From Octopus vulgaris (Eukaryota), in contig OX597828.1 of the NCBI GenBank assembly GCA_951406725.2, forward strand, positions 29,822,001-29,886,000: DNA of 64,000 nt, written 5' to 3'. This document shows positions 5,425 through 62,845 of the stretch, piece after piece; position 1 is the stretch's first letter, and every line of letters starts with the position of its first letter. Made by a program: the position numbers and the translations under genes. The notes beneath the pieces are model-generated. The model was not told the origin of the DNA. It did no database searches and was given only the letters and a program-made list of their open reading frames with translations.

Positions 5425-6609
5425 CATAGTCACTCATAATAAAAAAAAGGTGTATTGGCAGAATTTTCCAGTGAAAACCTGAATAAAATGTAAGCATAAT
5501 ATACGTGGAACTGTTGAAAACAGAATAAGATCCAATGCAACATGCAAGATTTCCCATAGGTCTTTAAGTAAAATGAAGTGAAGCATCGGAAAAAAACGCA
5601 ATGATCACCAGAAAGGAGTTGCAAAAAGGTTTGTTAGCTTCAGGGACTAGTGTTGCACTGTAAACAATCAGCAATGAACTTCATAGTAATGAACTGAAGT
5701 CACGCTCTCTTAGAAAAACTCTGCTGTTGACTAAAAGGCATAGAGATGCCCGTTTAAAATTTGTTTATGAACATAAAGATAAACCTGATACATTCTGGGT
5801 AAATGTTCTATGGACAAACGAGTCGAAAATTGAATTGTTTGGAGGAAGTTCGCGTTGCCATGTCTGGAGGAAAGATGGTACTGCCTATTCGCTGAAAAAC
5901 ACAATTCCTACCATAAAATTTGGAGGTGGTAACATCATGGTGTGTGTGTGTGTGGGTGTCTCTGCAAACGGCACTGGCAATTTACATGTGATAGAGGGTG
6001 GAATGAATGCAGAGATGTACCAAAATATTTTGAACAATAATTTATGGAACTCTGTAGAAACGCTCCAGCTTTGTGAAGGGTGGGTTTTACAATAGGATAA
6101 CGACCCTAAGCACACGGCGAAGTCTACCAAAAATTGGATTGTCGATCACAATAAAAAATTATTAGAATGGCCAAGCCAGTCACCTGACTTGAACCCCATT
6201 GAAAATTTGTGGCGTTATTTGAAAATTAAAATTCATTCAAGAGCCCCAACGTGCATTCTAGATTTGAGGAAAATTTGTCAAGAAGAATGGGAAAAAATCC
6301 TAAAGAAACATGAGATTCAGTGATTAAGAACTACAAGAAGACATTTGTTGAAGTGGAACTGAATAATGGTTATGCTACGAAGCATTAAATCAGAATTATC
6401 AGTTATTTATGTTTTGGACGAATACTTTTTTCACCCCTAAATATTTATAATTGTATATAAATTGTAACTATGATTTATTAGTTTCTTTTGCATATTCTTA
6501 GTTTATGCATATGTATGCAAATATAGTATTGGTATATCCCATTTATGTTCATTAGAAATTAGATAGATAAAGAATTTCGACATATACGAATATTTATTTT
6601 CCCCCACTG
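5425..6609 (+). mobile_element. Tc1-family DNA transposon, 5'-truncated, pseudogenised DD34E transposase
   Basis: Translations RHRDARLKF, VLWTNESKIELFG (first D mutated to N), [32 protein letters not shown], ending GYATKH* at 6388. Right end ...CCCCCACTG followed by TA at 6610-6611. No matching left TIR found. Confidence 0.92.
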
Positions 6610-8678: not shown

Positions 8679-10393
8679 TCAGTAGTTTTATTTTTATAGC
8701 GTGCTTTCACTTCACTACCGAGCGCAGCTCTGTGTGCCTTGGGTATGTGCTGTGATTTGTTGTGATGCTCTGATGGTTATTGTATGGAAAGTGTTCTGCG
8801 TAGGATATTTTTTTATCATGCTAATGCACCTACTATGATAGGAATTGTTTCTATTTTCAGATTCCACATTCTAGTTATCTCTATTTCCAGGTCTTTGTAT
8901 TTTGAGAGTTTGTCCATTTCTTTCGTTGTCATCTGTTTTCTGTGACCTTTTCTGGTGTGTGCCTATACCATCTTTTTTCTGTTGTTATTCCATAAATCTT
9001 TTTCTGTTGGCATAGCTTCCAATGTATGTAAGTTCCAACTCTGTCATGTCTGTGAATATATTCCTTCTTAGCCAGGACTGGGCAGCTAGAGATAATATGA
9101 TTTATTGTTTCTTGTCCATCTCCACATATTCTGCAGTTACTTGTAATATTTCTTTTCATTACATGGTTTTGGTAATTTCTGGTGGGGAGGCTTTGGTCTT
9201 GTGCTGCAATTAAAAATCCCTCTGTTTCTGCTTTGAGTCCTGAGCTTCTCAACCATTGCTGGGATTTTTCTTTGTCTATTTCTTTTGCGTTTAGTTTAGT
9301 GCAGTATTTACCATGAAGGGGCTTTTCTTTCCATCGTTTTATCATGGTTCGTTGCTGTTCTATTTTTAGTTTGGATTTCATTTGTTTTATAGCTTTTGTT
9401 GTTTCTCCATCTTCTTCTTCTTCTTCATGTTTATTAGGTGGTATGATTTCTTGTTTGTATTTGTCAGCTTCCTTAAATACTGAGAACAGTCTTTTGTTTT
9501 GCTCGTGTTTTGCTGCTATCTGGATCAGTTTTCCTTCCTTCTGAAGTAGATATTTTTGCAGTCCTATGGTGGTTATTTTATAGTAGTTTTCCAGCTGTAT
9601 AAGGCCTCTACCACCTTCTATACGTTGTATATATAGTCTTTCTATGTCAGATTTTGGGTGATGCATCCTAGATCCTGTCATTATTTTTCTTGTTTTCCTA
9701 TCTATTTTGGTCAGTTCATTTCGTGTCCAGTTAAGGATATTGTAGCTGTAACTTATAACTGGGACAGCTAAAGTGTTGATACCTATTATCTTGTTTTTAG
9801 CATTGAGCTCTGTGTTTAGTATTGATCTAACTCGTCTATAATATTCTTTTTTTATTTTCTCTTTCATTTGTGTGTGTTGTGTCTTATCTAGTTCATGGAT
9901 ACCTAAGTATTTGTAAGTTTGGCTTTGGTCTAATTCTTTTATTTCATTGGTTTTATCTAGTGTGATGTTGTTACTCTTAACTAGTTTTCCTCTTTTCATG
10001 GTTACTTTGGCGCATTTTTCTAATCCAAATTTCATATCTATTTCTTTGGTAAATCCATGAACTGTCTTTAATAGTGTTTCCAGCTGTTTGTCATTTGCAG
10101 CGTATAGTTTTAGGTCATCCATATATAAAAGGTGGCTGATCGTTTTGCCGTAACATTTATATCCGCATCCAGTTCTATTTAGCATATCAGATAGAGGTGA
10201 CAGTGCCAAGCAGAAAAGGAGTGGAGAGAGCGTGTCTCCCTGGAATATTCCTCTTCTAATGGGGATGTCTTTGGTTTTCATGAGTCCCTCTTTTGTTTGG
10301 AGGTGTAGGACTGTTTGCCATTTATTCATAGAGTGCTCTATGAATTTTATGATTGTTGGTGCTACTTTGTTAATGGCTAGTGTTTCGAGGATC
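8679..10393 (-). mobile_element. R4/Dong-type non-LTR retrotransposon, 5'-truncated, in a (TAA)n array
   Basis: ORF carries RT motifs GIFQGDTLSPLLF, HLLYMDDLKLY, FGLEKC, YKYLG and knuckle CRIC...ETINHIISSC. The 3'UTR ends ...AAAACTACTGA then (ATA)n. Microsatellite lies on both sides. Confidence 0.93.
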
Positions 10394-10395
10394 AA
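8929..10395 (-). pseudogene. Uninterrupted 488-aa RT + CCHC segment of the R4/Dong-type ORF; N-terminus and endonuclease core missing
   Basis: Supplied ORF has no internal stops. It is 5'-truncated, and a deletion near 8925 removes the LWD...PD..D region retained in the 36.8-kb copy. Confidence 0.9.
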
Positions 10396-10438
10396 ACGCC
10401 TTTTTGTAGTCGTTATTATTATTATTATTATTATTATT

Positions 10439-10527
<89 letters not shown>

Positions 10528-18275: not shown

Positions 18276-18401
18276 TGGAAGTGGATTATATTGATCCCAT
18301 CAGTTCTTGATTACCTAATTTATTTACACTTGAATGATGAAAAGTAAAAGTAACGTGAGTAAGGTTTGGATTTTGATCGTAGATCACATGGATTAGTACA
18401 T

Positions 18402-18441
18402 AGGCGCAGGAGTGGCTGTGTGGTAAGTAGCTTGCTAACCA
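18402..18441 (+). mobile_element. SINE family B 5' head, split by an insertion (continues at 20663)
   Basis: AGGCGCAGGAGTGGCTGTGTGGTAAGTAGCTTGCTAACCA; the uninterrupted copy at 34927-35377 (-) continues directly into ACCACATGGTTCCGGG. Confidence 0.92.
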
Positions 18442-19123
18442 GACATGCGCAGTTAGTCGGTTGCTTCTTGTTGAGCTAGAGTGGACGTGAGTCCAACTAA
18501 AGAAAAAAGACCAAAAACGGAAAGTTGTCGAGGTAAGTGATTTTGTTTATTGTGAGTTGGGCATAATTTATTGCGTGCCAATTATTATTTCAGTAGGTTG
18601 TGTCCAACTCTGAGACAATTTCGCCTGCGCTAGGCGGCTGCCGTTTTTGTGTTCATTGAAAAAAAAAAAAAAAAAAAACAGTGGAGGGGCGTATACTCAG
18701 GATTCAATACAGTTACTGTTAAAATTACCGTTGGCAGTAACCAGTGCTGTGTTTGAGTTTGCTGAATTTATTCCCTTGTCAGAGTACTTCGCAAGAAAAG
18801 TATAAAAATAAGCCACTATTGGATTACCTTTCGGACCCATTTTTGTGGAGGTTGTGTTGCAGTTGCGGCGTTCCAGGTTCAACCCAGGCCGGGAGTACCG
18901 CAGAATATTTTTGCTGTGTTTTTTCTGTTTATTAACTTTCTTTTGAACTTCATTTACCCCCCCCCCCCTTTTGTTTTTTCTTTATTGCGACTTTCCGTTA
19001 ATTTCTTCCCTTCTGTTGTGCTTTCTCCTTTTTGTTTTTTCAAAAATCTATCAAATTTATTTAGACTTTTGAACTTTTTTCTTCCTGCTTTTGAGTCTAA
19101 TTTGAATATATTTTTTAAAAAAC

Positions 19124-20366
19124 ATGGCAATGAAAAATAACAAAGTTTTGGAGTGGGAAATCATACCACCCAAAAAGTGGTTGAAGGACCGTGAAGATAG
19201 GACGGTGGTGTTGAGAACCTACTCCAAGGCACTTGACACCATCGCCCTATTCGAAAAAACGGCAATTGAGGAGGAGTTGGAGGAGTATTTGCCAACAATT
19301 AAATTCATTTCCAGGGGTGTCAAATATGGAACGGTGTGGTTGCTGTTTGACACCCCTGAAGAGGCTTGCAAATTTGCTAGCGAACCCTTGGAGGGTAAGG
19401 AAATCTTATTCCTGCCCACTTACAAAAAAAGAAATTAATGAAAGCTTGGATCTGCGGACTGCCACCCGACATAGAACCCGAGTGGATAGAGGAGACTATC
19501 CGCCGGGGTCTGGGTGACAGCGAAACTAAGCTCCTCAATGTAAAAGTTCTTCCTGCGGCTGCTTGGGTTGGCTCGAAAGCAGTTTTGACCCTGTGGACCC
19601 AATCAGCCAATCTGGTTTTTCCAGATTTTTTGAAAATGGCCGGGTGCAGGTACCCGGTGATGCTTGAGGGTCGCCCCCTAAGTGTCATCGGTGCTTGGAG
19701 TCCGGCCACATAAAGAAGAACTGTCCTCGGGAACAAAATAGGATCCCGGAACAGTTAAGTAAAACCCCTCTAGAAGAGGGAACGATAACGGCCGAGAAAG
19801 CAGAGGACTCCTCAAGCAGAGGCCGAAAGAGGAAGGTGAGCAACAATGGGTGCTCACCAAAGGATAATAGGGATGAGGAGAGGAGGGCGAATCTTCCAGC
19901 CACGGAGGAGACGCACCCTCCCTCAGTTGAAAAGGGAAAAAAAAAGAAAAAGAGGAAGAAAAACGGGACGTTGCCGGCTGTCAGTGTGGCACCGGAATGT
20001 CGCGGAACTACGTCGGTTGGGGTTGTGCCACCGACAAGAGAAGGAATACCGTTGGCGGAAACTGTGCCGCCAACGAAAGAACTGAATGTATTGGTCCTCT
20101 TCTATAGAGGAGGAGAAATTGAAAAAGTGATGGAAGAGCACTACAAGGGAGCACCTTTAGCATTCACACAGGACCCCGAATGGCCTCCGCAGGTAGCTGT
20201 GGAGGCCGTGGCGTTCGACGTGACGCTAGGGCTAAAGGAGCTCAATGAAGACTATAACTTGGTCCCGGGCGACGCGAACTCGGAACTTGACTACGTTCTG
20301 AGGGAGGCGTGGTTGATGGTGGAGGGCGCGGGCACAAGCTATTTCGAGGACGATATGTATTATTAG
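19124..20366 (+). CDS. L1/Tx1-type ORF1 (gag-like CCHC zinc-knuckle protein), ~414 aa, broken by two 1-nt homopolymer frameshifts
   Basis: Joins supplied ORFs 19124-19438, 19438-19713 and 19695-20366 through shifts at A7 (19424-19430) and C5 (19674-19678). Reconstructs ...KAWICGLPPDI...YPVMLEGRPPKCHRCLESGHIKKNCP (CX2CX4HX4C), then a basic KGKKKKKRKK patch. Confidence 0.75.
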
Positions 20367-20492
20367 TAATGGACTTAAGTCCAAAAATTGAAAAATTGTA
20401 AGAGGATTAATACCTCGTTTTGTATTAATAATGGACTGCTAAGCCCAAAATTGGAAAAATTGTAAGAGGTTTAATACCTCGTTTTGTGTTAA
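20367..20492 (+). repeat. Two tandem ~63-bp units in the 3'UTR of the ORF1-only element
   Basis: TAATGGACT...AAAAATTGTAAGAGGWTTAATACCTCGTTTTGTRTTAA at 20367-20428 and 20429-20492. Confidence 0.9.
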
Positions 20493-20662
20493 TCTTTTTA
20501 AAAAGAACAATGTTTTAGAGAAGCAAAAGTCGGCGGGCGCTTTCTGTCTTCTCCCATCCTTATCATCTTTCTTTCATTATCATTCACCTCATTAATGTCC
20601 TCGTCCAGACCGCAAAGCTAACTTAATCTGTGTACTGCCTTTATGGCAAATGTTTTGAAATA

Positions 20663-21048
20663 AAGTAGCTTGCTAACCAACCACATGGTTCCGGGTTCAG
20701 TCCCACTGCGTGGAATCTTGGGCAAGTGTCTTCTACTGTAGCCCCGGGCCGACCAATGCCTTGTGAGTGGATTTGGTAGACGGAAACTGAAAGAAGCCTG
20801 TCGTATATATGTACATATATATGTGTATGTGTGTTTGTGTGTCTGTGTTTGTCCCCCCAACATCGCTTGACAACCGATGCTGGTGTGTTTACGTCCCCGT
20901 CATTTAGCGGTTCGGCAAAAGAGTCCGATAGAATAAGTACTGGGCTTACAAAAGAATAAGTCCCGGGGTCGAATTGCTCGACTAAAGGCGGTGCTCCAGC
21001 ATGGCCGCAGTCAAATGACTGAAACAAGTAAAAGAGTAAATGAGTAAA
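20663..21048 (+). mobile_element. SINE family B, remainder of the split copy
   Basis: CCACATGGTTCCGGGTTCAGTCCCACTGCG...CTTGGGCAAGTGTC (CORE-like)...GAAACAAGTAAAAGAGTAAA. Confidence 0.92.
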
Positions 21049-34926: not shown

Positions 34927-35150
34927 ACTCTTTTACTCTTTTACTTGTTTCAGGCATTTGACTGCGGCCATGCTGGAGCACCGCCTTTAATCGAGCAACT
35001 CGACCCCAGGACTTATTCTTTTGTAAGCCCAGTACTTATTCTATCGGTCTCTTTTGCCGAACCGCTAGGTAACGAGGACATAAACACACCGGCATCGGTT
35101 GTCAAGTAATGCTAGGGGGACAAACACAGACACACAAACATACACACACT

Positions 35151-35212
<62 letters not shown>

Positions 35213-35377
35213 TACGACGGTCTTCTTTCAGTTTCCGTCTACCAAATCCACTCACAAGGCTTTGGTCGGCCCGAGACTATAGTTGAAGACACTTGCCCAA
35301 GGTGCCACGCAGTGGGACTGAACCCGGAACCATGTGGTTGGTAAGCAAGCTACTTACCACACAAGCCACTCCTGCGC
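34927..35377 (-). mobile_element. SINE family B, full length and uninterrupted
   Basis: Colinear with the joined 18402-18441 + 20680-21048 copy; internal (TA)n expanded. Confidence 0.9.
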
Positions 35378-36604: not shown

Positions 36605-37703
36605 TACTTTTTTTTTTCTTCTTTCAAATTTGCTTCAATTTCTTGCCGAGTGTCTTCCCGACTCCTAGGGCAAAGAAACTCATAGCATACATTGGTAGGC
36701 CATTAAACCAAACTCAGTAGTTCGTTCATTTTTTAATTTAAAAAAATTTTTTTTTTTAAGTTAAATTAAAATACATGAGCAGCAACAGTTCTCACATCGA
36801 CAATGCTCTTCTCAATACGTGTGATGTACCAGTTAAGACAATCTTTTGCACTTCTTGCAGGGATGGTAAGCCAGGGATCATTCTCATATAATTTTCGGTT
36901 CCCTTCTTGATCATTCCTAGTGCTCCTACGATCACTGGTATTGTAACCGCCTTGAGATGCCACATTTTCTCAATTTCAATGAGTAGGTCTTTATATTTTC
37001 TGAGCTTGTCAAACTCTTTCGCTGAGATATTATGATCACAGGGGATGCTCATGTCGATCAATAAGCAAACTTTATTGTTTTGGTCTTTCACAACAATATC
37101 TGGTTTATTGGCCTTGATGGTTCGGTCTGTATGTACTGGAAAGTCCCACAGAATGGTTACATTTTCTCCTTCAGTTACAGCCTCAGTGTGGTGATTATAC
37201 CACTTGTCGGCAGTTTTGATATTGTAATGCCGACTTATTAGCCAGTGGAGATATTGGCCAACTCTGTCATGTCTTAATTTATACTCCACTGGTGCCAAGA
37301 CTTTACATCCAGAGATTAGGTGGTCCACTGTTTCAATCATGTCGTTGCAGAATCGGCATTTTGGGTCTGCTCCATTCTTCATCACATTGGCCTGGTAGTT
37401 CCGGGTTAATAGGCTTTGATCTTGAGAAGCCAGGATGAAACCTTCGCTCTCTGCTTTTAGCCCTGAGCTCCGTAGCCACTGATGGGTTTGCTTCTGGTCA
37501 ATATCAGCTTGTTTGCTGCGGATCACATATTTGCCGTGCAGAGGTTACTCCTCCCACCTATCAGCCAATTGCTCGTGCGCTTTCTTCATTGCCATCATTT
37601 TCACCTTCTTTGCAACAATAGTTGCCGTACTTCCCTCGGGTTGTTCAGTTTGGGTATCCTGCACGAGATCAATAGCAAATTTTTTGCTTTCCTTTATGAT
37701 AGA
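36605..37703 (-). mobile_element. R4/Dong-type LINE 3' portion with CCHC and restriction-like endonuclease, in (TAA)n
   Basis: ORF 36792-37526: CRFC...ETVDHLISGC, RHD, ILWD, ANKPDIVVKD...LLIDMSIP...KLRKYKDL, IPVIVGALG. The frame extends upstream past one stop. Both flanks are (TAA)n. Confidence 0.93.
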
Positions 37704-43799: not shown

Positions 43800-43800
43800 T

Positions 43801-46883: not shown

Positions 46884-47805
46884 ATATTGCCACAATTGGC
46901 CTAGACACCTACCTGAAAAATCTGAGTACTGGATGTTAAAACTTGTCTCAAAACATGAAAACAAGAAAGCATCATACTCTGTAACAAAACAGGCAAAGGG
47001 ATATCTAAGTGAATTCCAAATACAACAAATTCCAGAATTAGACATACGAGAAACAAGCGCAGAAAAAGCTAAGCGCGTGAAAACCCGTGCTAAAATTGCT
47101 GCCTTAGATATTCTGACTGATAAATGACAAGAAAAGCCTCTCAATAGCAAATACCTAAAGAGAGCGAATAATGCCGATGTTGACAATGCCCTGAGCCATC
47201 AATGGCTAATGGACTCTGGCTTAAAATCTGAAACAAAAGGGTTTATCTTAGGAGCTCAAGATCAATGCCTACCTACAAGGAACTACCAGGCCAACATATT
47301 AAAGAACCGCAGTAGATCAAAATGTCATATACGTCAACAACAATATGAAACCATTGATCATGTTGTCTCCAAATGCAGTCTTCTTGCGCCTACAGTGTAT
47401 CTCAACAGGCATGATAGAGCTGCACAATATATTCACTGGGTAATTTGCAAAACTCTGGATTTGCCCCATGATAAAAACTGATAAAACACAAACCACCTCC
47501 ACTGCTTGAAAATGAACACATCTCACTCCTCTGGAACTTCACCATTCAAACTGACAGAAAGATAGATGCGAATAGGCTAGATATCATATTGAAAGACTTC
47601 AGACAAAAATCACGCCTCCTCAATGAAATGGCTGTCCCAATCAATATAAACGTATCTGTCAAGACCTCCCAAAAACTGAGCAAATATAAAGATCTTGAAA
47701 TAGAGATTAACAAAATGTGGAACCTGAAGACTAAAACAATACCTGTTGTCATAGCAAAAGGGGCTGATTGCTACCTAGCTCAGATACCAGGAAACCCCCA
47801 AATGC
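46884..47805 (+). mobile_element. R4/Dong-type LINE fragment (another subfamily) after (AAT)n
   Basis: One frame with stops: HQWLMDSGLKSETKGFILGAQDQCLPTRNY...RHDRAAQYIHW...LSKYKDLEIEINKMWNLKTKTIPVVI. Confidence 0.9.
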
Positions 47806-48099
47806 GGACAGCTGACACTTTCTATCATACCCAGCAAAATAAGCTGTGAGACTTCATATAATAATAATATAAATAATAACAACAGCAACAACAACAACAA
47901 AAACAACAATAATAATGATAATAATATTCAGAGTTAGTCACAAAGCACAAAAATGCTGCCACAAGAGCGACACTGACAGGCTATACCTAACTATGTGAAA
48001 TGTGTTAATCAGCTGTGAAATTTGTATATTCTCAGAAGAAAATAGTTTAGGGTGATATATCAATACTGCTATAGGACACTGCTGGGTAGGGAGAGATAT

Positions 48100-52091: not shown

Positions 52092-52560
<469 letters not shown>

Positions 52561-52574
52561 CATTATTATTATCA

Positions 52575-52967
52575 TTCGGTAGTTTTATTTTTATAGCGTG
52601 CTTTCACTTCACTACCGAGCACAGCTCTGTGTGCCTTGGGTATGTGCTGTGATTTGTTGTGATGCTCTGATGGTTATTGTATGGAAAGTGTTCTGCGTAG
52701 GATGTGTGCAGTGCCTAGTAGTGCAATTTTCTGTATGTTATATGTGTTTGTAAGTCCTGGTGTTTTTGTTATGTATTTGTCTGAATATTTTTTTATCATG
52801 CCTAATGCACCTACTATGATAGGAATTGTTTCTGTTTTCAGATTCCACATTCTAGTTACCTCTATTTCCAGGTCTTTGTATTTTGAGAGTTTCTCCATTT
52901 CTTTTAGAGACACGTTGTCATCAGCCGGTATTGATACATCAATTAGAAAGCATTTTTTCTTCTTCAT
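52575..52967 (-). mobile_element. R4/Dong-type 3' end, same subfamily as the 8679 copy
   Basis: ORF 52674-52967 CFLIDVSIPADDNVSLKEMEKLSKYKDLEIE...AHILRRTLSIQ; near-identical 3'UTR. Confidence 0.92.
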
Positions 52968-52975
52968 TATTATTC

Positions 52976-53008
<33 letters not shown>

Positions 53009-53016
53009 GTTGTTAC

Positions 53017-53053
<37 letters not shown>

Positions 53054-53578
53054 GAATGAGTGAGAGAGCAGCGCATGCCATCACAGTGATACTGGAGTAA
53101 AATATAAGTAGCCCAGTATAGGTATCATGACTACCCGTCTGATAAGGGTGCACCAGGCACATGCATCACAACCACATGAGCGCGACGTGATGATCTAACA
53201 CCAAGATAAACAGCACACGACCATACATTTGGGGGTCCACTTAGAGTTTTCTACTGCTCGAGTAGCCCATCCCACTCAAAAGGTCCCTGAATGAGGGTTG
53301 TTTAAGTATGTTGGACAAAACACCCATGTTTCCAAAGGTGAATTATCCAAACCCCAAAGAATTCCTCTTAACACATGCTTATGATGCTCCCCGGCTACTT
53401 CTGCCCGTGGTCAGGGATGCGCATATCGTCAACTACTAAATGTCATGCTCAACTGGTTAAGGTCAAACAACTGACAAGCAAATCTGTGGTATTGAGCAGA
53501 ATATTTGCTGTAGCCCATCTTGTATACCAAGACAGAACAATATACATGATAACACCTCCAATCATTTAAGATCAGAAG
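53054..53578 (-). mobile_element. Non-coding interspersed repeat ending in (AAT)n (second copy at 61757-62020)
   Basis: 53054-53320 is the reverse complement of 61757-62020 (e.g. CCCTTATCAGACGGGTA, GATGGCATGC, TGCTCTCTCACTCA). Confidence 0.75.
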
Positions 53579-61756: not shown

Positions 61757-62020
61757 GTTTGTTCAACATCCTTAAACAACACTTATTCAGGGACCTTTTG
61801 AGTGGGATGGGCTACTCGACCTGAACAAAATTCTAACTGGGCCCCCACCTGCAAGGTTATGCGCTGTTTATCTTGATATAAGATCACCATGTCGCGTAAC
61901 ATATGTTTGTGATGCATGTGCCTGCTGTACCCTTATCAGACGGGTATTCATGATGGGTATACTGGGCTTCGTACATTTTACCCCAGTGTCACTTTGATGG
62001 CATGCACTGCTCTCTCACTC
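61757..62020 (+). mobile_element. Second, shorter copy of the (AAT)n-tailed non-coding repeat
   Basis: Matches 53054-53320; followed by AATAATAATAAT. Confidence 0.75.
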
Positions 62021-62033
62021 AATAATAATAATA

Positions 62034-62845
62034 GCAACATAGATTTGGTCTCTGAGGACAACACCAGCAGAATTATATTTATGTCTAATAATTCCAAGAT
62101 TAAGAATTCTATATACCAACGTAAAATGTCCTCCGGTACCGAAATCTATTTCTGTATTGGCGCTTCATCTTCTAAGTTATCTAAGAGAATTTCCAATCAT
62201 TATTCTTCATTTAGGGATAGCAGTAAACGCAATAGCACAAGGCTTAATAAATTGGTTTGGTATCTTAAAGACAGCAATAAAGATTTTATGTTAGATTGGT
62301 TCATCCTGCCCATCTTTTTCGCTTATGATAAGGGCAATGGATTCTATAACATTTGTAACTCTGAACTCTGAACTCCATATTCTCTTCTCTAAGAATCACC
62401 TGGTTAACACACTTATAGAGTGATCTTACAAATGTAAGCACTGGCAGAAACACACCTTTATCTGATATAAGTGAACATTTAGTTCACCTTGCACTTTACT
62501 TCAAAAGATCAATCTACTTCCAAACCTCTGAACATTTTTTAAACCAACATATCCCTCTATATTTCTCCTTTATTTGTTCTCTACTTATTTCTTTACCACT
62601 TCTTTTTCTATGGACTGCCTTTGACGTCGGATCTACTAACAGTTATTTTTTAAAATACTTAATAACGTTCTGTTTTTCATTTATGCAGTCATCAAAATTG
62701 TTGTAATGTCTTGTTGTCGAGATGGGTTCTCTTTCTTTCCCGATGCGAAGATTACATTATTTTACACCGTTTATACCTTTGTCTTCGAAACATATGTCGA
62801 AAGTAAAGGAATTTGCATATTTGTGTTCAACTTCATTTATTTACT
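62034..62845 (+). mobile_element. Penelope-like element 3' fragment: decayed GIY-YIG endonuclease plus terminal repeat
   Basis: SIYQ...FCIGASSSKLSKRISNHYSSFR...NSTRLNKLVWYLKD...DWFIL...NICNSE...CKH fits the Penelope-type GIY-YIG C-terminus. Degenerate hammerhead at 62728-62810. Confidence 0.8.

What the first reader, a model, noticed from the sequence alone, without database searches (positions are those of the whole stretch)
18425..20679. Apparently complete ORF1-only (HAL1-like) retroposon inserted into a SINE with a perfect 17-bp TSD
Seen: a 2221-bp unit bounded by an exact 17-bp duplication splits a family B SINE, and the empty-site sequence is visible in the 34927-35377 copy. It has a long 5'UTR, one ~414-aa CX2CX4HX4C protein and a 3'UTR ending at AATAAA, with no RT, endonuclease, LTR or TIR. 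Known: TSDs of this length are typical of target-primed reverse transcription by L1/Tx1 machinery, and ORF1-only HAL1 elements are described mainly from mammals. Inference: a young non-autonomous family that keeps its own RNA-binding ORF1 and borrows ORF2 in trans. I know of no description of this in cephalopods.
Basis: partly seen in the sequence, partly recalled or inferred. Interest (0 to 1): 0.82.

Follow-up and report, generated by a model that had tools for sequence, protein, structure and literature searches.

The report
Octopus ORF1-only hitch-hiking retroposon family
This 2.2-kb repeat, present in many copies in octopus DNA, carries one conserved gene predicted to bind RNA but no copying enzyme, so it likely spreads by borrowing the enzyme of a full-length LINE retrotransposon, a lifestyle known from mammals and insects but not found described for molluscs in our searches.

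Summary
Mostly confirmed. An exact 17-bp duplication (18425-18441, 20663-20679) brackets 2221 bp that split a tRNA-like SINE. No RT, endonuclease, LTR or TIR was found.

Two corrections. The 414-aa ORF is broken in the window at two homopolymer runs; one public contig (3 substitutions in 2059 nt) and an Octopus sinensis relative read through both. AATAAA borrows two bases from the duplication, and there is no poly(A).

The unit is multi-copy along its whole length in 3 of 3 DNA runs. One contig at about 80 times flank depth runs from ORF1 through the stop into the 3' region with no ORF2. Of 25 listed coding differences, 17 are synonymous (7.6 expected). The protein is predicted as RRM-RRM-CCHC (type I LINE ORF1p); all 13 relatives with a species name (22 looked up) are octopod.

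Best reading: an ORF1-only non-autonomous LINE family, likely mobilised by L1/Tx1 machinery. The class is known (HAL1, HeT-A, Ag-Sponge); no mollusc case was found in 9 searches.

Still open: the shared 3' end, other copies' TSDs, the partner and its clade, SINE targeting and expression.

The parts
18400..18441 (+). 5' half of the host tRNA-like SINE (A-box-like part; box labels recalled), ending in the left duplication
   Evidence: loose ends put the SINE 5' edge at 18400-18402
18425..18441 (+). left target-site duplication, 17 bp
   Evidence: D7
18442..20662 (+). inserted unit, 2221 bp, multi-copy along its whole length
18442..19123 (+). 5' untranslated region, 682 nt, T-rich towards the start codon; presumed internal promoter (inferred)
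18453..18489 (+). initiator-like hexamer (18453) and downstream-promoter-element-like heptamer (18483, at +29); motif labels recalled, picked after seeing the sequence, untested
   Evidence: the only such pair among 544 initiator-like sites in the window; heptamer in the first 60 nt in 10 of 2000 shuffles
18531..18538 (+). perfect splice-donor-like octamer; acceptor-like sites end at 18782, 18850 and 19095; retained in the genomic copies seen
   Evidence: only occurrence in the window; 24 of 2000 shuffles; contigs over 18705-18813 are unspliced
19124..20366 (+). ORF1-like gene, 414 aa by arithmetic; broken in the window at two homopolymer runs (about 19423 and 19673)
   Evidence: table 4, 40, 61, 86, 87
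19163..19428 (+). first RRM-fold domain (predicted on relative P0001, residues 14-102; window limits approximate)
   Evidence: (La RRM Z 9.0, rmsd 2.6, 82 aligned)
19429..19673 (+). second RRM-fold domain (predicted on P0001, residues 103-185; limits approximate)
   Evidence: (U2AF65 RRM1 Z 8.1, rmsd 2.6, 75 aligned)
19683..19724 (+). single CCHC zinc knuckle
20070..20363 (+). C-terminal region of about 98 aa with no known family; conserved (6 of 7 listed differences synonymous)
20367..20662 (+). 296-nt 3' region with no ORF2: 64-nt tandem duplication (20361-20493), pyrimidine-rich tract, and AATAAA at 20659-20664 overlapping the right duplication
   Evidence: (D2)
20663..20679 (+). right target-site duplication, 17 bp
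   Evidence: D7
20663..21046 (+). 3' part of the host SINE (B-box-like part, body, TA/TG microsatellite, tail)

Best explanation
The 2221-bp unit is one copy of a multi-copy octopus repeat that carries a single conserved gene, predicted to be a type I LINE ORF1 protein (two RRM folds and a CCHC knuckle), and no reverse transcriptase or endonuclease; it is likely a non-autonomous LINE that is copied by the ORF2 protein of a full-length L1/Tx1-type element. Proposed steps. (1) Shown: multi-copy over the whole length, stop codon running straight into the 3' region, mostly synonymous coding differences, and a 17-bp duplication of a SINE target. (2) Predicted: ORF1p binds RNA. (3) Inferred: a Pol II promoter in the first 50 nt makes the RNA. 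ORF1p coats its own RNA, which would explain why selection keeps the ORF. A borrowed ORF2p nicks the bottom strand at a TT/A step and primes on the A-rich 3' end, pairing with the two shared A's at 20663-20664. A second nick 17 nt away leaves the duplication. (4) The two frame breaks in the window are likely homopolymer errors or lesions of this copy, not the family's state.
For: TSD and split SINE. Copy number (table 2): the lowest element bin is 76, 6 and 34 times the highest flank bin in X2, X9 and X12. Single contigs (table 8): 18705-18813 at 66 times flank-contig depth (X12) and 17 times (X9); 20330-20450 at 81 times (X9, 1 difference in 121 nt, 34 nt before and 84 nt after the stop). X1 contig 18432-20490 has 3 substitutions and 4 gaps, two of them one extra base at the two breaks. 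The extra base at 19423 also shows in X2, X9 and X12; that at 19673 in X9 and X12. P0001 (O. sinensis, XP_029652367) is continuous across both breaks. Selection: 17 of 25 listed coding differences are synonymous against 7.6 expected, P about 1e-4; 16 of 23 without the two X1-only rows, P 1.3e-4; all 3 in the linker are non-synonymous. Fold: AF2 pLDDT 80.5, tandem-RRM matches. ESM Atlas nearest clusters are CCHC and ZCCHC3-RBD clusters at 0.90-0.92 (a lead). RRM+CCHC is type I ORF1p and in non-mammalian animals is 'consistent with the Tx1 clade' (PMC5203782 passages). A partner pool exists: 13 recently active L1-Tx1 families with 421 insertions in O. vulgaris (PMC13282606 Table 1).
Against: No listed contig bridges 20490-20662 or shows another copy's 3' junction; SINE reads filled the joint and loose-end tables (829 and 1689 rows not shown). 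So the family's 3' end and copy-specific TSDs were not seen. There is no poly(A) tail. No partner was found and no relative could be tied to an ORF2, so L1/Tx1 rests on architecture and TSD length; type I ORF1p also occurs in other clades. The extra bases at the breaks appear in only part of the depth in the DNA runs: 2352 of 8799, 995 of 2023 and 121 of 11416 at 19423; 0 of 12938, 3470 of 11438 and 14705 of 60089 at 19673. X1's other two gaps are not listed and one could lie in the ORF. The selection test used only the 40 best-supported of 78 rows, from short contigs that may mix subfamilies and autonomous relatives. Depth ratios are not copy numbers (tool's warning). No Pfam ZCCHC3-RBD match among the 25 families shown for the 28 alignment members.
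Confidence: 0.6

Rival explanations
1. The unit is the 5' half (5'UTR, ORF1 and a spacer of about 300 nt or more) of a longer autonomous LINE. This one copy ended early at an AATAAA-like site, and the high depth comes from full-length relatives.
For: The family's continuation beyond 20662 was not seen (tables cut). No poly(A) tail. An ATG 2 nt after the stop opens 10 codons. The second tandem unit reads as a frame loosely like the start of an APE endonuclease (likeness recalled, the key Asn is missing).
Against: The 296 nt after the stop hold no ORF2-like frame. The stop runs into this region at about 80 times flank depth. Mean summed depth is higher over the 3' region than over the 5'UTR in all 3 DNA runs, and highest there in 2 of 3, as expected for a true 3' end with 5'-truncated copies, though divergence of the 5'UTR could also give this.
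Confidence: 0.17
2. It is an ORF1-only non-autonomous LINE, but its parent and helper belong to another clade with type I ORF1p (I/Nimb, Jockey-group, L2/CR1), not L1/Tx1.
For: Type I ORF1p is not limited to L1/Tx1. The initiator- and DPE-like pair recalls Jockey/I-type promoters (recalled). O. vulgaris has CR1 (169 families), I (26) and unclassified LINEs.
Against: A 17-bp duplication, a TT/A-like nick site and an A-rich end without a microsatellite tail fit L1/Tx1 better (own knowledge). No I-clade family is listed as recently active.
Confidence: 0.12
3. It is a retrocopy or expanded family of a host gene domesticated from a LINE ORF1 (a ZCCHC3- or L1TD1-like case), not a mobile family.
For: Gene-like 5' end: promoter-like motifs and a perfect splice donor. 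Purifying selection. The O. sinensis relative has three RefSeq isoforms.
Against: Tens-fold depth over the whole unit. The donor-acceptor interval is retained, where a processed mRNA copy would lack it. Dozens of divergent octopod relatives at 23-36% identity look like TE diversity.
Confidence: 0.06
4. The unit moves at the DNA level (a recombinase or transposase supplied in trans), and the 17 bp are an attachment core or a long DDE-type duplication.
For: No poly(A). The same 5-bp-stem hairpin stands near the 5' end (18482) and just after the stop (20370) and nowhere else in the window.
Against: No terminal inverted or long direct repeats. The 5'UTR-3'UTR likeness is at chance level (138 of 500 shuffles). 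The protein fold is that of LINE ORF1p.
Confidence: 0.05

Closest known systems
HAL1 (half-L1), mammals
   Same: Encodes only ORF1p, is non-autonomous, and keeps ORF1 coding capacity, read as a need for cis ORF1p plus trans ORF2p (PMC5753468 and PMC3627910 passages; Bao and Jurka 2010 itself was not held).
   Different: The ORF1p here is RRM-RRM-CCHC (type I), not the Transposase_22 type II protein of mammalian L1. No poly(A). Mollusc host. No sequence link to HAL1 was shown.
HeT-A (Drosophila, Jockey clade) and Ag-Sponge (CR1 clade; Anopheles, host recalled)
   Same: Listed with HAL1 as ORF1-present non-autonomous LINEs whose protein likely multimerises with that of the autonomous partner (PMC5786205 passage).
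   Different: HeT-A adds to telomere ends; this element sits inside a SINE with a 17-bp duplication. It has a single CCHC knuckle. A Tx1/L1-Tx1 parent, if right, is not among the three clades that passage names.
Tx1-clade LINEs (Tx1L, Keno, Kibi, Koshi, Tx1-Mar); octopus L1-Tx1 families
   Same: Type I ORF1p architecture. Many Tx1 families insert into other repeats or small-RNA genes (PMC4494074 passages). L1-Tx1 is abundant and recently active in O. vulgaris (80 families, 13 active).
   Different: No ORF2, so the RT tree that defines the clade cannot be built from this element. Target preference is not shown.
ZCCHC3-type proteins (two RNA-binding domains plus CCHC)
   Same: Nearest named ESM Atlas clusters (score 0.90, 168 shared features).
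   Different: No PF23057/PF23058 match among the families shown by HMM. This is a multi-copy repeat, not a single host gene.

Membership tests
ORF1-present non-autonomous LINE (HAL1/HeT-A/Ag-Sponge class) | Encodes a LINE ORF1p-type protein | tested here: met
   Predicted RRM-RRM-CCHC on relative P0001 (71-80% identical over the two RRM pieces); type I definition
ORF1-present non-autonomous LINE (HAL1/HeT-A/Ag-Sponge class) | No ORF2 (RT, endonuclease) in the unit | tested here: met
ORF1-present non-autonomous LINE (HAL1/HeT-A/Ag-Sponge class) | Multi-copy family with the same stop-to-3'-region junction | tested here: met
   tables 2 and 8 (contig 20330-20450 at 81 times flank depth in X9; X1 contig to 20490)
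ORF1-present non-autonomous LINE (HAL1/HeT-A/Ag-Sponge class) | Copies share one 3' terminus and have their own target duplications | tested here: inconclusive
   One TSD seen. Other junctions were hidden by SINE reads; no genome is held.
ORF1-present non-autonomous LINE (HAL1/HeT-A/Ag-Sponge class) | ORF1 kept by purifying selection | tested here: met
   17 of 25 listed coding differences synonymous against 7.6 expected; 40 of 78 rows were available
ORF1-present non-autonomous LINE (HAL1/HeT-A/Ag-Sponge class) | 5' and 3' parts shared with an autonomous partner LINE | tested here: inconclusive
   No partner in JGI, IMG/VR or GTDB scans; these collections are not expected to hold octopus genomes
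HAL1 proper | Type II (coiled coil, RRM, CTD; Transposase_22) ORF1p derived from mammalian L1 | tested here: not met
   Two RRM folds plus CCHC; no Transposase_22 match
Tx1 / L1-Tx1 clade | RT phylogeny of the element or its partner | not testable with these tools
Tx1 / L1-Tx1 clade | Type I ORF1p and a TSD of about 10-20 bp | tested here: met
   not exclusive to Tx1
Tx1 / L1-Tx1 clade | Target preference (over 20% of flanks of one repeat type, criterion in PMC4494074) | tested here: inconclusive
   One insertion site known; 22 unaligned letters at the start of the X1 contig were not shown
LTR element or TIR DNA transposon | Long terminal direct repeats or terminal inverted repeats | tested here: not met

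The most novel reading that the evidence does not exclude
An ORF1-only Tx1 derivative that is target-specific for the abundant octopus tRNA-SINE: it uses its own ORF1p and a borrowed sequence-specific endonuclease to land between the SINE's A- and B-box-like motifs. That would make it a protein-coding hyper-parasite that disables SINE promoters as it spreads, and a fourth clade and first mollusc case of ORF1-only LINEs.
Probability: 0.2. Interest if true: 0.75.

Novelty: new member of a known kind. Interest (0 to 1): 0.5.

Why it matters
ORF1-only LINEs are rare: a 2018 paper names three cases (HAL1, HeT-A, Ag-Sponge). An independent case in a mollusc, with measurable purifying selection on a type I ORF1p, supports the idea that some LINE machinery needs ORF1p made from the same RNA while ORF2p can come in trans. 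Such families have no RT, so pipelines may file them as unknown repeats or host genes: the relatives stand in NCBI and UniRef as 'uncharacterized' or 'CCHC-type' octopus proteins, and may inflate counts of octopus-specific zinc-knuckle genes. If the family targets the SINE, it gives a testable case of one retroposon parasitising another in a genome that is about 12% SINE.

Tried and rejected
Genome and copies. No whole genome is held, so copies, flanks and partner could not be read. Scans for octopus loci in JGI metagenomes, IMG/VR and GTDB gave 0 confirmed loci; a scan with alignment A1 could not be built.

Protein searches. P0001 at similar length returned only itself. The 'longer' search with A1 covered 1403-4005 aa and found none; this is weak evidence.

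C-terminal region. I suspected it matches the C-terminal tails of 6 relatives; an HMM gave -1.4 bits, reached by 832 of 2000 shuffles, so this was rejected. The Atlas was blank and the single-sequence fold was unusable, pLDDT 39.8.

3' and 5' ends. A decayed ORF2 start in the tandem repeat got no Pfam or PDB support. 5'-3' terminal similarity was at chance level. RNA folds of 4 end regions had z from 0.07 to -1.61, none significant.

RNA families and expression. Rfam gave 0 matches and ARAGORN 0 genes in the window, so 'tRNA-like' for the SINE rests on recalled A/B-box motifs. No RNA holder was listed; X1 is only guessed to be RNA, so expression is not claimed.

Earlier findings and papers. 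Five look-ups of earlier findings returned nothing. Bao and Jurka 2010 and Khazina and Weichenrieder 2009 were not held. TRE5-A.2 of Dictyostelium as a further ORF1-only precedent is recalled only; one search did not show it. No complex prediction was run.
Full report
OBSERVATION. An exact 17-bp direct repeat stands at 18425-18441 and 20663-20679. It occurs only twice in the window, against about 4e-6 expected by chance. The 2221 bp between the copies have no second copy in the window. The sequence on either side joins up as one SINE: the left part matches the uninterrupted copy at 35381-35339 (93%) and the right part matches 35355-34926 (83%); copies at 43800, 3988 and 32068 also match both parts. 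At SINE position 20675, 67-75% of SINE depth has T in 4 of 4 runs, while both duplicated copies have A. This fits duplication of one target. The insertion lies between A-box-like and B-box-like motifs (labels recalled; Rfam and ARAGORN found nothing). The window looks like octopus DNA: SINEs, long microsatellites, RT fragments, and all 13 relatives with a species name among 22 looked up are octopod.

TWO CORRECTIONS. First, the window has no 414-aa ORF. The coding region is in three frames, broken at an A7 run near 19423 and a C5 run near 19673. A 2083-nt contig of run X1 covers 18432-20490 with 3 substitutions and 4 gaps, two of which are one extra base at exactly these runs. Contigs of X2, X9 and X12 show the first extra base, and X9 and X12 the second (table 4). 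The O. sinensis protein P0001 is continuous across both breaks, and P0001 and P0002 start at a Met matching ATG 19124. That gives 414 aa by arithmetic (one search gives 412 from ATG 19130). Against this, the extra bases appear in only part of the depth in the DNA runs (1-49% at 19423, 0-30% at 19673), which short clipped contigs may explain, and X1's other two gaps are not listed. Second, AATAAA (20659-20664) is complete only with the first two bases of the right duplication, and no poly(A) follows.

A FAMILY, NOT A ONE-OFF. I laid 4 of 24 listed runs. In the three DNA runs every one of 23 element bins is far above the unique left flank; the lowest is 76, 6 and 34 times the highest flank bin. 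Summed depth is no copy number, so single contigs are the better guide: 18705-18813 is at 66 times the flank contig in X12 and 17 times in X9, and 20330-20450 is at 81 times in X9. This last contig has one difference in 121 nt and spans the stop codon with 34 nt before and 84 nt after it. The join of ORF1 to this 3' region is therefore common in the genome. What the data do not show is the family's 3' end. No listed contig bridges 20490-20662, and SINE reads filled the joint and loose-end tables (829 and 1689 rows not shown). Holders carry three organism codes; I laid runs of two of them.

SELECTION. One search listed 40 of 78 letter differences. Of these, 34 lie in the unit and 25 in the coding frames; the 6 in the SINE and 9 in the UTRs were left out of the test. 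Seventeen of 25 are synonymous against 7.6 expected from the same change types (P about 1e-4; ratio about 0.2). By region: 10 of 14 in the RRMs, 1 of 1 beside the knuckle, 0 of 3 in the linker, 6 of 7 in the C-terminal region. Without the two X1-only rows it is 16 of 23 (P 1.3e-4). The rows are the best supported, come from short contigs and may mix subfamilies or autonomous relatives. This shows constraint on the protein in the family's history, not a clean dN/dS among ORF1-only copies. The number of differences also means this copy is not near-identical to most of the family, so 'young' is shown only for the sub-lineage it shares with X1.

PROTEIN. Pfam finds only a sub-threshold zinc knuckle. 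phmmer with P0001 gave 47 proteins at E up to 0.001, itself included, most at 23-36% identity. None of 52 stored proteins has more than one CCHC motif or an endonuclease-like motif, and none of 21 scanned has an RT or endonuclease family. AlphaFold2 on a 28-sequence alignment gave pLDDT 80.5. Foldseek's best matches are tandem-RRM proteins (E about 5e-6, low TM over the whole chain). VIA-align matched residues 14-102 to the La RRM (Z 9.0, rmsd 2.6, 82 aligned) and 103-183 to U2AF65 RRM1 (Z 8.1, rmsd 2.6, 75 aligned). The ESM Atlas points to CCHC and ZCCHC3-RBD clusters (0.90-0.92, a lead). RRM plus CCHC defines type I ORF1p, which in non-mammalian animals fits the Tx1 clade but is not limited to it (PMC5203782, passages). 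The last 98 or so residues are conserved but have no known family. No RT, endonuclease, LTR or TIR was found.

MECHANISM. Shown: a dispersed-type insertion with a 17-bp duplication, a multi-copy ORF1-plus-3'-region unit, and constraint on the ORF. Predicted: RNA binding. Inferred from known LINE biology: transcription from an internal promoter, ORF1p coating its own RNA, and a borrowed ORF2p nicking the bottom strand at a TT/A step and priming on the A-rich end. An initiator-like hexamer and a DPE-like heptamer lie in the first 50 nt and form the only such pair among 544 sites in the window; they were picked after the fact and the spacing is one base off the recalled rule. L1/Tx1 is the likeliest helper: O. 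vulgaris has 80 L1-Tx1 families, 13 recently active (PMC13282606; parts 1-2 of 3 of the text and the whole supplement read). I found no partner, so this step is untested.

RIVALS. The strongest (0.17) is that the unit is the 5' half of an autonomous LINE with a long spacer and that this copy ended early. The missing poly(A) and the unseen 3' junctions leave it open; the lack of any ORF2-like frame in 296 nt and the high 3' depth weigh against it. A helper from another clade (0.12), a domesticated gene or retrocopy (0.06) and DNA-level movement (0.05) follow.

TARGETING. Many Tx1 families insert into particular repeats (PMC4494074, passages). One site cannot show that here. SINEs are 11.7% of the O. 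vulgaris genome and this family's non-microsatellite parts cover 2.7% of the window, so a chance landing is not far-fetched. The X1 contig matches the last 10 bases of the left duplication, but its first 22 letters did not align and were not shown. That could be a second insertion in a similar target, a library adapter, or something else.

WHAT IS KNOWN. ORF1-present non-autonomous LINEs are a named class: HeT-A (Jockey), HAL1 (L1) and Ag-Sponge (CR1) (PMC5786205, passages; also PMC5753468 and PMC3627910, passages). The element works like them but is not a HAL1, since its ORF1p is of another type. Nine paper searches (listings and abstract starts) and passages of PMC8967140 and PMC8869645 showed no ORF1-only LINE from cephalopods or from Tx1. 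The supplement of PMC13282606 has 0 occurrences of 'non-autonomous', 'ORF1' or 'HAL1'. Repbase, Dfam, that paper's Zenodo library and subscription journals were not available, so the family may already be catalogued.

VERDICT. A real, multi-copy, selectively constrained ORF1-only retroposon family is the best reading (0.6 with an L1/Tx1 helper, about 0.7 with any helper). It is a new member of a rare known kind. Interest 0.5; 0.75 if it proves to target the SINE (probability 0.2).

Noticed in passing
window 18482-18495, 20370-20383 (variant at 20432-20447): The same 5-bp-stem, 4-nt-loop hairpin stands near the element's 5' end and 3 nt after the stop codon, and nowhere else in the window. The overall 5'-3' similarity is at chance level; function unknown.
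   Followed up: partly
window 18531-18538, acceptor-like sites ending at 18782, 18850, 19095: The window's only perfect splice-donor octamer lies about 90 nt into the element. It recalls the 5'UTR donor of human L1 (recalled); no spliced copy was seen.
   Followed up: partly
window 20367-20518: An ATG 2 nt after the ORF1 stop opens 10 codons, and the second tandem unit reads as a frame faintly like an endonuclease N-terminus. Possibly a decayed ORF2 start; no database support.
   Followed up: partly
run X1, contig laid on window 18432-20490: Its first 22 letters do not align to the window's SINE head although the next 2059 have only 3 substitutions and 4 gaps; unexplained (table 8).
   Followed up: no
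protein P0002 (O. sinensis XP_029639579): A gene model that fuses about 45 residues of a close ORF1 relative with an integrase-core region (PF00665); probably a chimera of two TEs.
   Followed up: partly
proteins P0003-P0047: A large, divergent octopod family of RRM-RRM-CCHC proteins annotated as uncharacterized or CCHC-type genes. Several relatives share a C-terminal tail with each other, but not detectably with this element.
   Followed up: partly
window 8929-10527 (-), 36792-37544 (-), 47475-47849 (+), 52485-53055: Fragments of one or more LINE families with RT and zf-RVT beside (ATT)n tracts; they look like Dong/R4-type elements (label recalled). Unrelated to the finding.
   Followed up: no
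window 5664-6095 (+): Tc1/mariner transposase fragment (HTH_Tnp_Tc3_2, E 8.6e-8).
   Followed up: no
window 61913-62371 (+): A 152-aa frame without a Pfam match whose end resembles Penelope-like GIY-YIG endonuclease regions (recalled).
   Followed up: no
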